Part shown: positions 29,774 to 38,132 of the stretch, piece after piece
Layout of the letters: every line of letters begins with the position of its first letter
Numbering within the stretch: the stretch's first letter is position 1
Assembly: GCF_055900595.2 (NCBI RefSeq)
Contig: NZ_CM148325.1
Length of the DNA stretch: 64,000 nucleotides
Strand: one strand, 5' to 3'
Notes under the pieces: model-generated
Told to the model about the DNA's origin: nothing
Databases searched by the model: none
What the model saw: the letters and a program-made list of their open reading frames with translations, nothing else
Made by a program: the position numbers and the translations under genes

Positions 29774-31051
29774 CTAGGTGCCGCTGCGCCACTGAATCAG
29801 GGCGGGCGGCATACTGAGATCGAATAAATCACGTCCCATTACGCGATTAAGAATACGTGCAGATCTCCATGCCATCAGGCTGAGCTGGGGTTCGGCGATG
29901 CCATGGGTTTGCATACTGGCGTTGACCACGAAGATGTTGTTCTCTTTCGGGCCACTCCATTCCAGAGTGAAGTCATCACGCACTTTAAAGGTGTTCTTAT
30001 CGTGCATGGTGATCAGGGGCATCAGTGAGGGAAGTATTTGTGGCAACGCAGAACGGTAACCTGTGGCGAAAATCACCACATCACTTTCCAGGCTCTCCCT
30101 GCCCTGATCCAGATGATGCTCCATCAGCAACTTCCAGCCAGGACCACTACTTTCCAGAGTTGTTACCGAGCGGCTGGGTAGCAGACGGATATTTCTTGGT
30201 TTTCTCAGAACTTCAAAACGGTGGTACAACTCACGATAAATGGTCAGTAAAGAATCGGCAGTGATGCCATCCGATGTCATTTTCTGCTCATCCAGTAACT
30301 GATGGCGAATATCTTCCTCCAGTCCGGAGAAGCCTGAAATATATTCAGGTGTAAAATACTCATCAGCAAAAGCAGCCTCATCCAGTGCGTTAAAATTATT
30401 ACGCCGGGAGACCCAGTTTATTTCCGCCGCTTCTCCCCATTCCCCGCGTAATGCATTAAGGAACAGGTCTGCACCACTCTGTCCTCCACCAACCACGGTT
30501 ATCCGTTTTCCACTAAGGTCCGGCCGACGAAGATTCATTTCACTGGCATGGAAACAGGATTGTGTCATATGCTTCACACAGGGTGGTAAATAAGGTTGTT
30601 TTCCTGTACCAAGGCAGATATTGCGGGCAAAATATTCTCCCTGGCTGGTTTGCACCAGAAACAATCGACGTTTTTTATCGAAATCAATGTTTTCAACGGT
30701 ATGACTGAAATACAGGTTATTCATATCTTCAGCAGCCCAGCGGAGGTAGTCAGAAAACTCTTCACGGGATACTGTACGTAGTCTGCTTGTAAGGAAGCGA
30801 TAGAACTTTTTGTGCTTCACCAGATAGTTAACAAAACTGTAGGGATTTGTAGGTGCAACAGCACTGACCAGATCTTTCAGAAAGACGGTCTGCATATGAC
30901 AATCCGGTACCAGCATACCCGGATGCCAGGAAAAATGAGGATGTTCATCAAAGAAGAGACAGTCCAGTTCTTCGATCTGATGTGACAACGCAGCAATGCT
31001 GAGATTAAATGGCCCTGTCCCTACACCAATAAAATCGACACTTTTTTTCAT
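29774..31051 (-). CDS. iucD: L-lysine N6-monooxygenase IucD
   Basis: FAD/NADPH motifs (GVGTGPFNLS, VVGGGQSGAD); overlaps iucC stop by 4 bp. Confidence 0.9.
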   Translation of the reverse strand: MKKSVDFIGVGTGPFNLSIAALSHQIEELDCLFFDEHPHFSWHPGMLVPDCHMQTVFLKDLVSAVAPTNPYSFVNYLVKHKKFYRFLTSRLRTVSREEFSDYLRWAAEDMNNLYFSHTVENIDFDKKRRLFLVQTSQGEYFARNICLGTGKQPYLPPCVKHMTQSCFHASEMNLRRPDLSGKRITVVGGGQSGADLFLNALRGEWGEAAEINWVSRRNNFNALDEAAFADEYFTPEYISGFSGLEEDIRHQLLDEQKMTSDGITADSLLTIYRELYHRFEVLRKPRNIRLLPSRSVTTLESSGPGWKLLMEHHLDQGRESLESDVVIFATGYRSALPQILPSLMPLITMHDKNTFKVRDDFTLEWSGPKENNIFVVNASMQTHGIAEPQLSLMAWRSARILNRVMGRDLFDLSMPPALIQWRSGT

Positions 31052-33737: not shown

Positions 33738-35462
33738 TCAGACCTCCTGAGCCTGCAGCGGGTTAGCGAAATCGAAATAGATCACCGAAGGGTCAACAAT
33801 GGTGTTCTCGTTATGATCGTTCAGATAACAGAAAAAGTTACCTTTTACGTTCCAGTACGGACTTTCCAGCACGTAGTTGAGACAGGTTTTATGAGTCACC
33901 TGATCACGCACTTCAGCCAGCGATGCTCGTACACGAGCCATCAGATTCGATTCGCTGTCCAGCCCGGCAGCCCCCAGCGCAGCGGTCACAGCAAAAGTGG
34001 AGTTAACCAGCAGGTAATAAGGGAAATAGCGCAGCAACTGCTCATGGGTGAAAATATTTTCCGCCTGCGCCTCGCCAATAGAATCGAGCCAGTCTGTCGC
34101 GTGAGGCATAAAAGCGCTGCCCTGACAGTCACGGTAAATAAATCCGACCGGCAGATCCCCAAGCATCTGGACAAGAATATTTTGCTGATGCGCCAGCAGC
34201 ACCAGGCCGTAATCCGCTTCAGCCGTAAACAGCGGCTTTAGCACTTGCTGACAGTATGCATCGACCCATGCATGGGCGGCCTGTTGCACAGTGATACCGA
34301 GGCGATCGCTCAGGCGTTTTACCGCCGAAACCAGCAGCGAATCACCGCCATCAGGTGCGGCCTGAGTCAGGGAGACCAGTACGTTAGTCTGGCTTTTCGG
34401 CTGATCCACCAGCAGATTTTCACGCAGGGCAAACAGACTTTCCTGCATGATGTTGCCGTTAAGATCGCGCAGCCCGGCCCAGCCATCCTCCTGCATTACC
34501 CGGAAAGTCGGGAAGCGGACCTGTAGCATCTGCCAGCCGTCGGTTTGAGCCAGGCGTGCCAGGCGCATCCCACGCTTCACTTCTTTCACGGACAGAGTAC
34601 GGATGGAGTTGGTCAGCCGTACGCTCAGGGAGAACTTGATCATATCGCGGCTGGTGGCACAGTAGAGGGAACGGGAAGAGGTGGTCGGCAGCCACGACGT
34701 GCCGGCCTCACCTAAGTCTTTAATCAGCCCTTTAGCAACAAGTGCCTGGCACCACCCCTGCTGCAAAAGATATTCCCCCTGCCACGGGTGCAACGGGAAC
34801 AGCCATTGGTTGTCACTTAATTCGTTGAGTAACTGAGGCGCATTCTCTGCGGCAAATCGCGTCAGCCGCTGTTGAAGGTTGAGATGCAAACTTTCACCGG
34901 CGATTTGCGTTTTATCCACCGAAAACCACCGCAGTGGGAAGTGGGGTGCCATATCAGGCAGGTAGCGTTCAGCCTCCCGCCGGTTAAACGGTTCATGAGA
35001 CTTAGGCGCAGGGTGGAAAGCGTGTCCTGTCAGCAGCGCCTGCTCAGCCTCGCCAAAATTCAACGCTTTTTCACGCAGAGCGGCCCAGTCATGACGGGCA
35101 TCAATTGCCTGTTGCGTATGGACATGGCTTTCCAGCACGCGCTGGTGGAAAGTTTCGCAGAGGGGAACGGGCAGAAACAGTTGATGGCGTAGCTTATCAA
35201 TAATAAGCCGGGAGAGAGTGGTAAAGTCGACAGGATAACTGCCTGATGCCGTGACCAGACGTGCAGGAAATGCAAAGCGGTGATGCTGGGTTGGGGAGAA
35301 ATAAGCCACTCTGAAATGGAGCGATTTCTGCTCATCCAGCGGGATGAGCAATTCGTCTGGCGGGTATTCTGTCAGTTTCCAGTCTGTGGTTTCACGAATC
35401 AGTGCATTCAGGAAGCACTGCGCAGCCACATCTGTGGCTGGTTTTTCAGAGGGCAGGGTCAT
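33738..35462 (-). CDS. iucA: aerobactin synthetase IucA
   Basis: Matches IucA from MTLPSEKPATDVAAQCF.. onward; the 21 codons upstream in the track ORF lie in the AT-rich promoter/Fur-box region. Confidence 0.9.
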   Translation of the reverse strand: MTLPSEKPATDVAAQCFLNALIRETTDWKLTEYPPDELLIPLDEQKSLHFRVAYFSPTQHHRFAFPARLVTASGSYPVDFTTLSRLIIDKLRHQLFLPVPLCETFHQRVLESHVHTQQAIDARHDWAALREKALNFGEAEQALLTGHAFHPAPKSHEPFNRREAERYLPDMAPHFPLRWFSVDKTQIAGESLHLNLQQRLTRFAAENAPQLLNELSDNQWLFPLHPWQGEYLLQQGWCQALVAKGLIKDLGEAGTSWLPTTSSRSLYCATSRDMIKFSLSVRLTNSIRTLSVKEVKRGMRLARLAQTDGWQMLQVRFPTFRVMQEDGWAGLRDLNGNIMQESLFALRENLLVDQPKSQTNVLVSLTQAAPDGGDSLLVSAVKRLSDRLGITVQQAAHAWVDAYCQQVLKPLFTAEADYGLVLLAHQQNILVQMLGDLPVGFIYRDCQGSAFMPHATDWLDSIGEAQAENIFTHEQLLRYFPYYLLVNSTFAVTAALGAAGLDSESNLMARVRASLAEVRDQVTHKTCLNYVLESPYWNVKGNFFCYLNDHNENTIVDPSVIYFDFANPLQAQEV

Positions 35463-35502
35463 AGTCAAACAGCTCCCACACAGCAAAATAATAACAATTA
35501 TG

Positions 35503-35535
35503 TCAATAATGATTCTCATTATCAATAATAAATGT
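35503..35535. promoter_or_regulatory. Fur box / iron-regulated promoter of iucABCD-iutA (divergent from shiF)
   Basis: CAATAATGATTCTCATTATCAATAATAA closely matches Fur consensus, about 45-70 bp upstream of iucA start. Confidence 0.65.
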
Positions 35536-35597
35536 TATTGTCAGATAAATTAATTTTACAAATAAACACAATTAATACATGGAGTTGAAACATTATA

Positions 35598-36791
35598 ATG
35601 TCACCAGGGATCGAAGATACGCCCCAAAAACCACTGTCCTGCTGGCCACTTGCGTTCAGTGCCGGGCTTCTCGGTATCGGACAGAACGGTCTGCTGGTTG
35701 TGCTCCCTGTTCTGGTCATACAGACAAATCTGAGTCTGTCTGTATGGGCTGCCCTGCTGATGCTTGGCTCAATGCTGTTTCTGCCATCGTCCCCGTGCTG
35801 GGGAAAGCAAATTTCCCGTACTGGCAGTAAACCTGTGGTGTTGTGGGCTCTGGGAGGATATGGCATAAGCTTTACCCTGCTAGGGCTGGGAAGCGTGCTG
35901 ATGGCTACCAGCGCCATAACAACAGCGGTGGGACTGGGAATATTAATCATCGCCCGGATCGCCTACGGGCTGACCGTGTCGGCAATGGTGCCAGCCTGTC
36001 AGGTCTGGGCATTGCAGAGAGCTGGAGAAGGGAATCGCATGGCCGCTCTGGCAACCATCAGCTCCGGCCTGAGTTGCGGCAGGCTATTCGGGCCGCTGTG
36101 CGCGGCAGCAATGCTGGCCATTCATCCTCTGGCGCCACTGGGGCTGCTGATGGCAGCCCCAGTGCTGGCGCTGCTGATGCTGCTGCGGTTGCCCGGCACA
36201 CCACCACAGCCCACACCGGAGTGCAAGAGCGTCAGTCTGAAGCGGGATTGTCTGCCTTATCTGCTTTGCGCAATATTACTGGCTGCGGCGGTGAGCATGA
36301 TGCAGCTTGGACTTTCGCCTGCCCTTACTCGCCAGTTCGCCACGGATACCACCGCCATTAGCCAACAGGTGGCCTGGCTGTTGGGTCTGTCCGCAGTAGC
36401 TGCGCTTATCGCGCAGTTCGGGGTACTCCGTCCGCAGCGCCTGACTCCGGTGGCCCTGCTCCTGAGTGCCGGAGTGTTGATGAGTGGTGGTCTGGCTATC
36501 ATGCTCTCCGAACAGCTATGGTTGTTTTACCCGGGCTGTGCAGTGCTGTCATTTGGAGCAGCTCTGGCAACACCCGCTTATCAACTTCTACTGAATGATA
36601 AGCTGGCTGATGGCGCAGGCGCGGGCTGGCTCGCTACCAGTCACACACTTGGCTATGGACTGTGCGCTTTGCTGGTGCCGCTGGTATCGAAAACAGGTGT
36701 CGCAATCGCGCTGATTATGGCAGCATTATTTGCAACTATATTATTTACCATTGTGTCTGTATTTATCTGGCATTACCGTACTATCAAATAA
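35598..36791 (+). CDS. shiF: MFS transporter ShiF
   Basis: 397 aa 12-TM MFS protein divergently transcribed from iucA, as in SHI-2-type aerobactin islands. Confidence 0.8.
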   Translation: MSPGIEDTPQKPLSCWPLAFSAGLLGIGQNGLLVVLPVLVIQTNLSLSVWAALLMLGSMLFLPSSPCWGKQISRTGSKPVVLWALGGYGISFTLLGLGSVLMATSAITTAVGLGILIIARIAYGLTVSAMVPACQVWALQRAGEGNRMAALATISSGLSCGRLFGPLCAAAMLAIHPLAPLGLLMAAPVLALLMLLRLPGTPPQPTPECKSVSLKRDCLPYLLCAILLAAAVSMMQLGLSPALTRQFATDTTAISQQVAWLLGLSAVAALIAQFGVLRPQRLTPVALLLSAGVLMSGGLAIMLSEQLWLFYPGCAVLSFGAALATPAYQLLLNDKLADGAGAGWLATSHTLGYGLCALLVPLVSKTGVAIALIMAALFATILFTIVSVFIWHYRTIK

Positions 36792-36903: not shown

Positions 36904-37809
36904 CTATATTTCCAGACATCTGTTATCACTTAACCCATTACAGGCCCGCTGCCGCAGATATTCCCGTGGCGAGCGATAACCCAACGCACTATGCGGATGC
37001 CATTCGTTATAATGCTCGAACGCCTCTGCAAGGTTCTTTGCTGCCGTTAACCCGTCTGGTTTGGGTATGATACTTATGTAGTCACGCTTTATCGTTTTCA
37101 CGAAGCTCTCTGCTATGCCGTTACTCTCCGGACTCCGCACCGCCGTGTTTTTCGGTTCAAGCCCCAACATCCGGGCAAACTGCCGTGTTTCATTAGCCCG
37201 GTAGCATGAACCATTATCCGTCAGCCACTCTACTGGAGACGCCGGAAGCTCGTTGCCGAAGCGGCGTTCCACCGCTCCCAGCATGACGTCCTGTACTGTT
37301 TCACTGTTGAAGCCGCCCGTAGTGACCGCCCAGTGCAGTGCCTCACGGTCACAGCAGTCCAGCGCGAACGTGACCCGCAGTTTTTCTCCGTTATCACAGC
37401 GGAACTCGAACCCGTCAGAGCACCATCGCTGATTACTTTCTTTCACAGCCACTCTGCCGGTATGTGCCCGTTTCGATGGCGGTACAGCGGTTTTTCGCTC
37501 AAGCAACAGCGCATTCTGGCGCATGATCCGGTAAATACGTTTGGCATTGATCGCAGGCATACCATCAAGTTCTGTTTGTCTGCGAAGCAGCGCCCATACC
37601 CGACGATAACCATATGTGGGTAGCTCTCCGATAACATGGTGTATACGGCGAAGCACATCCGTATCATCCGTGTGACGGCTGCGGCGGCCGTCCTTCCAGT
37701 CATCGGCTCGTCTGAGAATGACGTGCAACTGCGCACGCGACACCCGGAGACAACGGCTGACGAAGCTTACTCCCCATCCCCGGGCAATAAGGGCGCGTGC
37801 GCTATCCAC
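36904..37809 (-). CDS. insD: IS2 transposase OrfB
   Basis: 301 aa, near-identical to copy 1 InsD. Confidence 0.9.
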
Positions 37810-38132
37810 TTTTTTGCTCGCCCATATTCAACGGCTTCTTTAAGGAGTTCATTTTCCATCGTTTTTTTGCCGAGCAGACGCTGGAGTTCTTTAATCTGCT
37901 TCATGGCGGCAGCAAGTTCAGAGGCAGGAACGACCTGTTCTCCGGCAGCCACAGCAGTAAGACTTCCCTCCTGGTATTGCTTACGCCAGAGAAATAACTG
38001 GCTGGCTGCCACACCATGTTGCCGGGCAACAAGGGAGACCGTCATTCCCGGTTCAAAGCTCTGCTGAACGATAGCGATCTTTTCCTGTGTAGTACGCCGT
38101 CTGCGTTTCTCCGGCCCTAAGACATCAATCAT
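37767..38132 (-). CDS. insC: IS2 transposase OrfA
   Basis: Identical to copy 1 InsC in the track translation. Confidence 0.9.

What the first reader, a model, noticed from the sequence alone, without database searches (positions are those of the whole stretch)
35463..35597. Compact divergent iucA-shiF control region with Fur box
Only about 135 bp separate the iucA and shiF start codons, and this stretch contains a near-consensus Fur box. Both transcription units are therefore likely co-regulated by iron from one shared region, as expected for aerobactin islands.
Basis: established knowledge. Interest (0 to 1): 0.15.

Follow-up and report, generated by a model that had tools for sequence, protein, structure and literature searches.

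The report
Known shared iucA–shiF Fur control region
This 135-bp stretch is the well-studied iron-repressed switch between the aerobactin siderophore genes and the neighbouring transporter gene shiF; it is really there, but its shared control by the Fur repressor has already been shown by experiment.

Summary
The iucA start (minus strand, ATG at 35462) and the shiF/MFS start (plus strand, ATG at 35598) are separated by exactly 135 bp (35463-35597, 24% G+C). This spacer holds a 19-bp Fur box, GATAATGAGAATCATTATT (35505-35523, minus strand), matching the consensus at 17 of 19 positions. Three matches were found in the window against 0.03 expected by chance.

The box lies over the iucA P1 promoter (TTGATA-17-CATAAT). 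It sits inside a cluster of weaker Fur-like sites (35484-35542).

The window is the E. coli pheV pathogenicity island, 100% identical here to Nissle 1917 and many ExPEC strains.

- Lemaître 2012 and Genuini 2019 state that shiF shares the aerobactin Fur box and is iron-induced.
- Banerjee 2020 shows for CFT073 (three spacer substitutions, none in the box) one Fur ChIP-seq peak region, 119-fold (iucA) and 32-fold (shiF) derepression in a fur mutant, and this same 19-mer assigned to both genes.

The open point is where the shiF promoter lies. No mapped start was found. The best conserved candidate has its -35 inside the Fur box. A very conserved 36-bp block (35547-35582) is unexplained.

Verdict: real, ordinary, already known.

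The parts
33738..35462 (-). iucA (aerobactin synthase, 574 aa), first gene of iucABCD-iutA
   Evidence: ORF list. Pfam IucA_IucC 2.8e-45 and FhuF 6e-34. RefSeq annotation of identical genomes.
35463..35597 (.). 135-bp divergent iucA-shiF spacer, 24% G+C against 47% for the window
   Evidence: The spacing is free of indels across the E. coli chromosomal, ColV, E. fergusonii and two Klebsiella alleles. It is also annotated as 135 bp in Cronobacter.
35505..35523 (-). Primary Fur box GATAATGAGAATCATTATT (17/19 to consensus)
   Evidence: 3 matches in the window against 0.03 expected. Same 19-mer as the motif under the CFT073 Fur ChIP peak for both iucA and shiF (PMC7157518). 14 of 19 positions invariant across five alleles.
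35497..35525 (-). iucA main promoter P1: -35 TTGATA (35525..35520), 17-nt spacer, -10 CATAAT (35502..35497)
   Evidence: Consensus scan, 10/12 matches. Top minus-strand score in my PWM scan, with the -35 at the same spacer position (63) in all six loci. A review places both Fur sites within P1, over -35 and -10 (PMC3788343).
35484..35542 (.). Cluster of overlapping Fur-like 19-mers (12-13/19) on both sides of the primary box, including the 'secondary' site 35484-35502 over the P1 -10/+1
   Evidence: starts at 35484, 35496, 35499, 35505, 35511 and 35524. Six observed against 0.94 in shuffles of the spacer (fraction reaching six: 0.0035). Consistent with the published long iucA operator (PMC2189734).
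35513..35541 (+). Best conserved candidate shiF promoter (inferred, not mapped): -35 TTCTCA (35513-35518, inside the Fur box), 17-nt spacer, -10 TATTGT (35536-35541)
   Evidence: This is the only plus-strand candidate that scores at the same alignment column in all five alleles (Klebsiella TTCCCA/TTCTCA-17-TAGGAT). It is weak evidence: the -10 lies in the least conserved part of the spacer (48% identity to Klebsiella). An alternative is TCAATA (35522-35527)-18-TAAATT (35546-35551).
35547..35582 (.). Highly conserved 36-bp shiF-proximal block, AAATTAATTTTACAAATAAACACAATTAATACATGG; role unresolved (shiF leader or promoter, upstream iucA promoter, or distal part of the Fur operator)
   Evidence: 30 of 36 positions invariant and 86-100% identity to the other alleles, better than the flanking codons. 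No RNA structure: z = +1.19, consensus energy -0.66 kcal/mol. No Rfam match.
35598..36791 (+). shiF (MFS transporter, 397 aa), auxiliary aerobactin secretion factor
   Evidence: ORF. Pfam MFS_1 2.2e-18. RefSeq 'MFS transporter'. Function from PMC6918656.

Best explanation
This is the classic aerobactin promoter-operator, in its chromosomal (pheV island) allele. It acts as a bidirectional, iron-repressed control region.

When iron is plentiful, Fur with its metal cofactor binds the 19-bp box at 35505-35523. It then spreads over the flanking weaker hexamer repeats. This covers the -35 to -10 of the iucA P1 promoter and, on the other strand, the promoter of shiF, so RNA polymerase is kept off both. 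When iron is scarce, Fur leaves and both units are transcribed: iucABCD-iutA makes and takes up aerobactin, and ShiF (an MFS transporter) raises aerobactin secretion.

Shown here: the geometry, the box, the site cluster, the P1 overlap and the conservation. Shown in the literature for near-identical alleles: Fur occupancy and Fur- and iron-dependent expression of both genes. Inferred: the position of the shiF promoter, and therefore that the same box rather than a neighbouring weak site occludes it.
For: Sequence and statistics:
- 135-bp spacer and start codons.
- Fur box at 17/19, with 3 matches in the window against 0.03 expected.
- Cluster of six Fur-like 19-mers against 0.94 expected even in shuffles of the AT-rich spacer.
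- P1 TTGATA-17-CATAAT lies over the box.
- The box is one of the two most conserved islands of the spacer (14/19 invariant).
- The spacing has no indels from E. coli to Klebsiella at about 76% identity.
- The best conserved shiF-direction promoter candidate has its -35 inside the box.

Literature:
- CFT073 Fur ChIP peaks of 341 and 331; 119-fold and 32-fold derepression in a fur mutant; the same 19-mer assigned to both genes (PMC7157518).
- shiF up 7.7- to 17.7-fold in low iron, serum and urine, and said to share 'the same Fur Box' (PMC3438092; PMC6918656).
- The footprinted iucA operator in pColV-K30 is 103 bp long with 13 predicted overlapping sites (PMC2189734). By my mapping this corresponds to about 35477/35482 to 35579/35584, most of the spacer.
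- The CFT073 spacer differs from the window by 3 bases outside the box. The ColV-like allele differs by 8, also outside the box.
Against: - No transcription start for shiF was found in the searchable literature. The promoter candidates are weak in an AT-rich region where such matches are common.
- The -10 of the best candidate lies in the least conserved segment.
- ChIP-seq resolution cannot tell one shared site from two adjacent sites.
- In Cronobacter the strongest Fur box sits 23 bp closer to iucA (spacer positions 20-38), far from any likely MFS promoter. A single box covering both promoters is therefore not a fixed feature of this gene pair.
- My mapping of the 103-bp footprint onto the window assumes that the 19-mer lies within M10930 347-370 and that there are no indels. 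I could not read the original footprinting papers.
Confidence: 0.85

Rival explanations
1. Both genes are Fur-repressed, but through separate sites. The 19-mer controls iucA P1. shiF is controlled by its own weaker Fur sites nearer its promoter, in the flank 35524-35542 or in the conserved block 35547-35582. The region would then be two adjacent operators rather than one shared box.
For: - Additional Fur-like 19-mers at 35511-35529 and 35524-35542 (13/19).
- Klebsiella alleles have a 13/19 site at spacer positions 99-117, inside the conserved block.
- The long 103-bp published footprint holds 13 predicted sites.
- In Cronobacter the strongest box has moved towards iucA.
Against: - In E. coli no 19-mer in 35547-35582 reaches 12/19.
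- The published motif calls assign the same 19-mer to both genes.
- Fur spreading from a nucleating site makes the distinction partly a matter of wording.
Confidence: 0.1
2. The iron response of shiF is indirect. Its promoter is coupled to iucA P1 activity, for example through local supercoiling from strong divergent transcription or through release of promoter competition, rather than being occluded by Fur itself.
For: - The two promoters must lie within about 100 bp of each other, back to back.
- shiF derepression (32-fold) is smaller than that of iucA (119-fold).
Against: - The Fur ChIP signal over the spacer, and the authors' classification of shiF as a direct target.
- The Fur site cluster extends towards shiF.
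- No evidence for coupling was found.
Confidence: 0.03
3. The Fur box is a chance AT-rich match and the two genes are not co-regulated by iron.
For: The spacer is 24% G+C, so partial matches to an AT-rich consensus are easy to obtain.
Against: - A 17/19 match never occurred in 2000 shuffles of the spacer.
- 0.03 matches expected in the whole window.
- Conservation of the box.
- Direct published ChIP-seq, RNA-seq and qRT-PCR evidence.
Confidence: 0.01

Closest known systems
Aerobactin promoter-operator of plasmid pColV-K30 (de Lorenzo et al. 1987; Escolar et al. 1997, 2000; cited through PMC2189734 and PMC3788343)
   Same: - Same 19-bp Fur box (100% identical in the ColV-like allele).
- Same P1 hexamers TTGATA-17-CATAAT.
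- Same secondary site over the -10.
- Same 135-bp distance to the divergent MFS gene.
   Different: - The window carries the chromosomal pheV-island allele, about 93% identical over 501 bp, with 8 substitutions in the spacer, all outside the box.
- The classic work concerned only the iucA direction.
iucA-shiF (c3627-c3628) region of uropathogenic E. coli CFT073 (Banerjee et al. 2020, PMC7157518)
   Same: - Same island type and same gene order.
- Identical Fur 19-mer.
- Both genes shown to be direct Fur targets by ChIP-seq plus RNA-seq.
   Different: - Three substitutions in the spacer (35484, 35529, 35596).
- CFT073 has the long 445-aa IucD, whereas the window has a 425-aa form.
Bidirectional Fur-controlled promoter regions of the enterobactin cluster (fepA-fes, fepB-entC, fepD-entS; listed in PMC2189734)
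   Same: - Two divergent iron-uptake transcription units.
- A short AT-rich spacer.
- Clusters of overlapping Fur sites spaced by 6 or 3 bp.
   Different: - In those regions both promoters were mapped and footprinted. fepB-entC has two distinct protected regions.
- Here only the iucA side is mapped, and there is no sequence homology between the regions.
Cronobacter sakazakii plasmid aerobactin-like locus (pESA3 type; NZ_CP011048.1)
   Same: - Divergent IucA/IucC-family gene and ShiF-like MFS gene (58% identity).
- Annotated spacer also 135 bp.
- iucA-direction -35 at the same spacer position (63).
- A 17/19 Fur box.
   Different: - The Fur box lies at spacer positions 20-38, over the -10/+1, instead of 43-61.
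- The MFS gene is followed by a siderophore-interacting protein gene.
- The spacer sequence is otherwise hardly alignable.

Membership tests
Fur-repressed promoter (Fur box operator) | A 19-bp site close to GATAATGATAATCATTATC | tested here: met
   17/19 at 35505-35523 on the minus strand. 0.03 matches expected in the window, and none in 2000 shuffles of the spacer.
Fur-repressed promoter (Fur box operator) | The site overlaps core promoter elements, so that bound Fur excludes RNA polymerase | tested here: met
   The box spans the -35 and the spacer of iucA P1, TTGATA-17-CATAAT. For shiF this holds only for an inferred candidate promoter.
Fur-repressed promoter (Fur box operator) | Fur occupies the site in vivo or in vitro | not testable with these tools
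   Published for near-identical alleles: ChIP-seq peaks 341/331 in CFT073, and DNase footprints on pColV-K30 cited in PMC2189734.
Fur-repressed promoter (Fur box operator) | Expression rises on iron starvation or fur deletion | not testable with these tools
   Published: iucA 119-fold and shiF 32-fold in a CFT073 fur mutant. iucA 16- to 168-fold and shiF 7.7- to 17.7-fold in pS88 under low iron, serum and urine.
Bidirectional Fur-controlled promoter region (fepA-fes type) | Two divergently transcribed units whose starts flank one short spacer | tested here: met
   iucA on the minus strand and shiF on the plus strand, 135 bp apart.
Bidirectional Fur-controlled promoter region (fepA-fes type) | Both promoters lie within the Fur-protected DNA | tested here: inconclusive
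   iucA P1: yes. For shiF no mapped start was found. The candidates are TTCTCA-17-TATTGT and TCAATA-18-TAAATT, which overlap the box or the site cluster. The published 103-bp footprint would cover them if my mapping is right.
Aerobactin locus (iucABCD-iutA with shiF) | Gene content and order: iutA-iucD-iucC-iucB-iucA on one strand, shiF divergent | tested here: met
   Pfam domains, ORFs and RefSeq annotation of 100%-identical genomes.

The most novel reading that the evidence does not exclude
The 36-bp block at 35547-35582 is the best conserved part of the spacer (30/36 invariant from E. coli to Klebsiella). It may not be simply a distal part of the Fur operator. It could be the binding site of a second regulator, or the true shiF promoter or leader element. 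That would give shiF and/or the upstream iucA promoter an input other than iron, for example the oxygen-dependent down-regulation reported for iuc and shiF in Shigella (PMC4229854). The Fur consensus does not explain the block in E. coli (no 19-mer reaches 12/19), and it is not a structured RNA.
Probability: 0.2. Interest if true: 0.3.

Novelty: already known. Interest (0 to 1): 0.08.

Why it matters
Aerobactin is a major virulence-associated siderophore of extraintestinal E. coli, Shigella and hypervirulent Klebsiella. Its promoter is the model on which Fur repression was first worked out. Confirming the element here only shows that this island carries an intact, canonical iron switch for both iucABCD-iutA and shiF.

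One small gap remains. The shiF promoter has never been mapped, so it is not known how one operator serves both directions, or what the very conserved shiF-proximal block does.

Tried and rejected
1. The promoter-like TTAATA-16-TATAAT at 35572-35599 was considered as the shiF promoter and rejected. Its -10 overlaps the shiF ATG, so transcripts would start inside the gene. It is also not conserved (TACAAT in ColV, CGTGAC in Klebsiella).

2. ATGTCA-18-AATAAT (35500-35529, plus strand) would put the Fur box exactly in a shiF promoter spacer. Its -10 is lost in the ColV allele (AATGAG), where shiF is known to be iron-induced, so it was rejected.

3. A structured shiF leader or a known RNA element was ruled out: Rfam gave only a chance hit (E = 0.37, 13 bits against a gathering score of 58), the fold z-score was +1.19, and there was no covariation.

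4. The terminator-like hairpin at 35421-35440 lies inside the iucA codons and is not conserved in Klebsiella. It is treated as chance.

5. I looked by eye for ArcA-type repeats in the conserved block. I found only weak matches, not conserved in Klebsiella, and ran no statistical test.

6. I tried to read the original footprinting papers (PMC212138, PMC103753, PMC107206). They are not held, so the footprint limits come second-hand from PMC2189734.

7. A column-by-column alignment with Cronobacter was not reliable, so that locus was analysed on its own.

8. NCBIfam gave no name for IucA or ShiF above its cut-offs. Pfam and RefSeq annotation were used instead.

Full report
**Observation**

On the minus strand an ATG at 35462 opens a 574-aa ORF (33738-35462). 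On the plus strand an ATG at 35598 opens a 397-aa ORF (35598-36791). An in-frame TGA at 35586-35588 makes 35598 the first possible ATG for the plus-strand gene.

The first product has IucA_IucC and FhuF domains, and the second is an MFS_1 transporter. RefSeq annotates the same coordinates as iucA and 'MFS transporter' in genomes that are 100% identical here.

The spacer 35463-35597 is exactly 135 bp and 24% G+C, against 47% for the window. It holds GATAATGAGAATCATTATT at 35505-35523 (minus strand), which is two mismatches from the Fur consensus. The whole window gives 3 matches at up to 3 mismatches against 0.03 expected. Because the spacer is AT-rich, I also shuffled the spacer itself. A 17/19 match never arose in 2000 shuffles. 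Six 19-mers with at least 12/19 matches (35484-35542) were seen against 0.94 expected.

**Where the window comes from**

A 24-kb stretch around the site is 100% identical to several human ExPEC chromosomes and 99.9% identical to Nissle 1917. The annotated neighbourhood is the pheV-associated pathogenicity island: iha, sat, iutA-iucDCBA, shiF, IS2, IS debris, a degraded pap operon, an integrase, tRNA-Phe, and then core genes.

The 501 bp around the spacer occur in 1811 of 5426 complete E. coli genomes. They also occur in 827 plasmids at about 93% identity, mostly ColV-type. Klebsiella virulence plasmids carry alleles at about 76% identity.

**Anatomy**

The consensus scan finds TTGATA-17-CATAAT on the minus strand (35525..35497), lying over the box. 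This is the P1 promoter of the classic literature, and a review places both Fur sites within P1, over its -35 and -10 (PMC3788343). My own position-weight scan recovers it as the best minus-strand promoter. Its -35 starts at the same distance from the iucA start (spacer position 63) in all six loci examined, including Cronobacter.

The five-allele alignment has no indels across the spacer. Two islands stand out by conservation:
- The Fur 19-mer, with 14 of 19 positions invariant.
- A 36-bp block next to shiF (35547-35582), with 30 of 36 positions invariant. This is better than the first codons of either gene.

**What is already known**

- Lemaître et al. 2012 measured iucA and shiF of plasmid pS88. 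Both rose in iron-depleted broth, serum and urine (shiF 7.7- to 17.7-fold). [quoted passage not shown]
- Genuini et al. 2019 repeated this statement. They showed that deleting shiF halves aerobactin secretion and slows growth in low iron (PMC6918656).
- Banerjee et al. 2020 list shiF (c3628) among the direct Fur targets of CFT073, with ChIP peak height 331 against 341 for iucA. Derepression in a fur mutant was 32-fold against 119-fold. The motif reported for both genes is GATAATGAGAATCATTATT (PMC7157518).
- I fetched the CFT073 region. Its spacer differs from the window at 35484, 35529 and 35596 only, all outside the box.
- Chen et al. 2007 record that the footprinted iucA operator of pColV-K30 is unusually long (M10930 291-393, 103 bp), with 13 overlapping predicted sites, citing Escolar et al. 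2000 (PMC2189734).

The 19-mer must lie within the 24-bp primary region 347-370, and the ColV-like allele has no indels relative to the window. On those assumptions the footprint maps to about 35477/35482 through 35579/35584, roughly three quarters of the spacer. This mapping is my inference.

**Mechanism**

Iron-loaded Fur binds first at the 19-mer and extends over the flanking degenerate repeats. It occludes P1, and it occludes whatever promoter drives shiF. Iron starvation releases both.

The basis of each step differs:
- Shown here from the sequence: the geometry and the site cluster.
- Shown in the literature for near-identical alleles: Fur occupancy and regulation of both genes.
- Inferred: the shiF side of the mechanism, because I found no mapped shiF start.

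In my scan, the only plus-strand promoter candidate that holds its position in all five alleles is TTCTCA (35513-35518)-17-TATTGT (35536-35541), which is TTCCCA/TTCTCA-17-TAGGAT in Klebsiella. Its -35 lies inside the Fur box, back to back with the P1 -35. The evidence is weak: such matches are common in AT-rich DNA, and its -10 lies in the least conserved stretch. A second candidate, TCAATA-18-TAAATT, would also start at the box.

Two higher-scoring consensus matches were rejected. TATAAT at 35594-35599 overlaps the start codon and is not conserved. AATAAT at 35524-35529 is lost in the ColV allele, where shiF is known to be induced.

**Rivals**

- Separate neighbouring Fur sites for the two promoters (confidence about 0.1). 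ChIP-seq cannot exclude this. It gains some support from Cronobacter, where the 17/19 box lies at spacer positions 20-38, over the -10/+1 of the iucA-direction promoter and far from the MFS gene.
- Indirect coupling of shiF to P1 activity (about 0.03). Nothing supports this.
- A chance match without co-regulation. The statistics and the published data refute it.

**The conserved block at 35547-35582**

The Fur consensus does not explain the block in E. coli, since no 19-mer there reaches 12/19. It does not fold into a stable or conserved RNA structure, and it matches no Rfam family.

It could be the shiF leader or promoter, the minor upstream iucA promoter (which I recall from the 1980s literature but could not read), the distal part of the long Fur operator, or a site for another regulator. 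Shigella RNA-seq reports that iuc and shiF fall together under anaerobiosis without FNR involvement (PMC4229854). A second input is therefore conceivable but untested.

**Verdict**

The finding is real and correctly interpreted, and it is textbook material. It is the chromosomal allele of the aerobactin promoter-operator. Its shared use by shiF has been stated since at least 2012 and was demonstrated genome-wide in 2020.

Novelty: already known. Interest is low. The only residual question is where the shiF promoter lies and what the conserved block does.

Noticed in passing
window 35547-35582: This 36-bp block next to shiF is the most conserved part of the spacer (30/36 invariant across E. coli chromosomal, ColV, E. 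fergusonii and two Klebsiella alleles), better conserved than the flanking codons. It is not Fur-consensus-like in E. coli and not a structured RNA. Its role is unknown.
   Followed up: partly
window 35594-35600; L004 and L006 around 819-842: The E. coli shiF ATG (35598) and the TATAAT overlapping it are not conserved in Klebsiella, where the aligned codon is ACG. There the MFS gene is annotated to start at an ATG 21 nt downstream, giving a 156-bp annotated spacer without any indel.
   Followed up: partly
window 29718-31051 (iucD, minus strand): iucD here encodes 425 aa ending in WRSGT. CFT073 has 445 aa. A premature TAG plus a 1-nt deletion changes only the last about 20 codons. RefSeq flags this allele as 'frameshifted' in identical genomes, including Nissle 1917. 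Whether the short form is fully active was not tested.
   Followed up: partly
window 41762-41780 (+): A second Fur-like 19-mer, GCAAATGATAATCATTGTC (3 mismatches), lies in IS debris between an ISL3 transposase fragment and an Rz fragment, with no obvious gene to regulate. It is not in the CFT073 Fur motif tables. It may be an orphaned operator from a disrupted iron-regulated gene.
   Followed up: partly
window 35421-35440 (+): A terminator-like hairpin followed by a T run (CAGCCACATCTGTGGCTG GTTTTT) lies inside the first codons of iucA, on the opposite strand. It is not conserved in Klebsiella and is probably chance.
   Followed up: partly
L009 2321-2455 (Cronobacter sakazakii plasmid NZ_CP011048.1): A distant aerobactin-like locus keeps the divergent layout, a 135-bp annotated spacer and the position of the iucA-direction -35. 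Its best Fur box (17/19), however, is shifted 23 bp towards iucA, over the -10/+1. The ShiF-like gene there is followed by a siderophore-interacting protein gene.
   Followed up: partly
window 36904-38132 (-), and about 45000-48500: An IS2 (IS3 family) element sits 112 bp downstream of the shiF stop. Further on, the pap operon is degraded (papA frameshifted, IS1 insertions flanking papX), as annotated in identical genomes.
   Followed up: no
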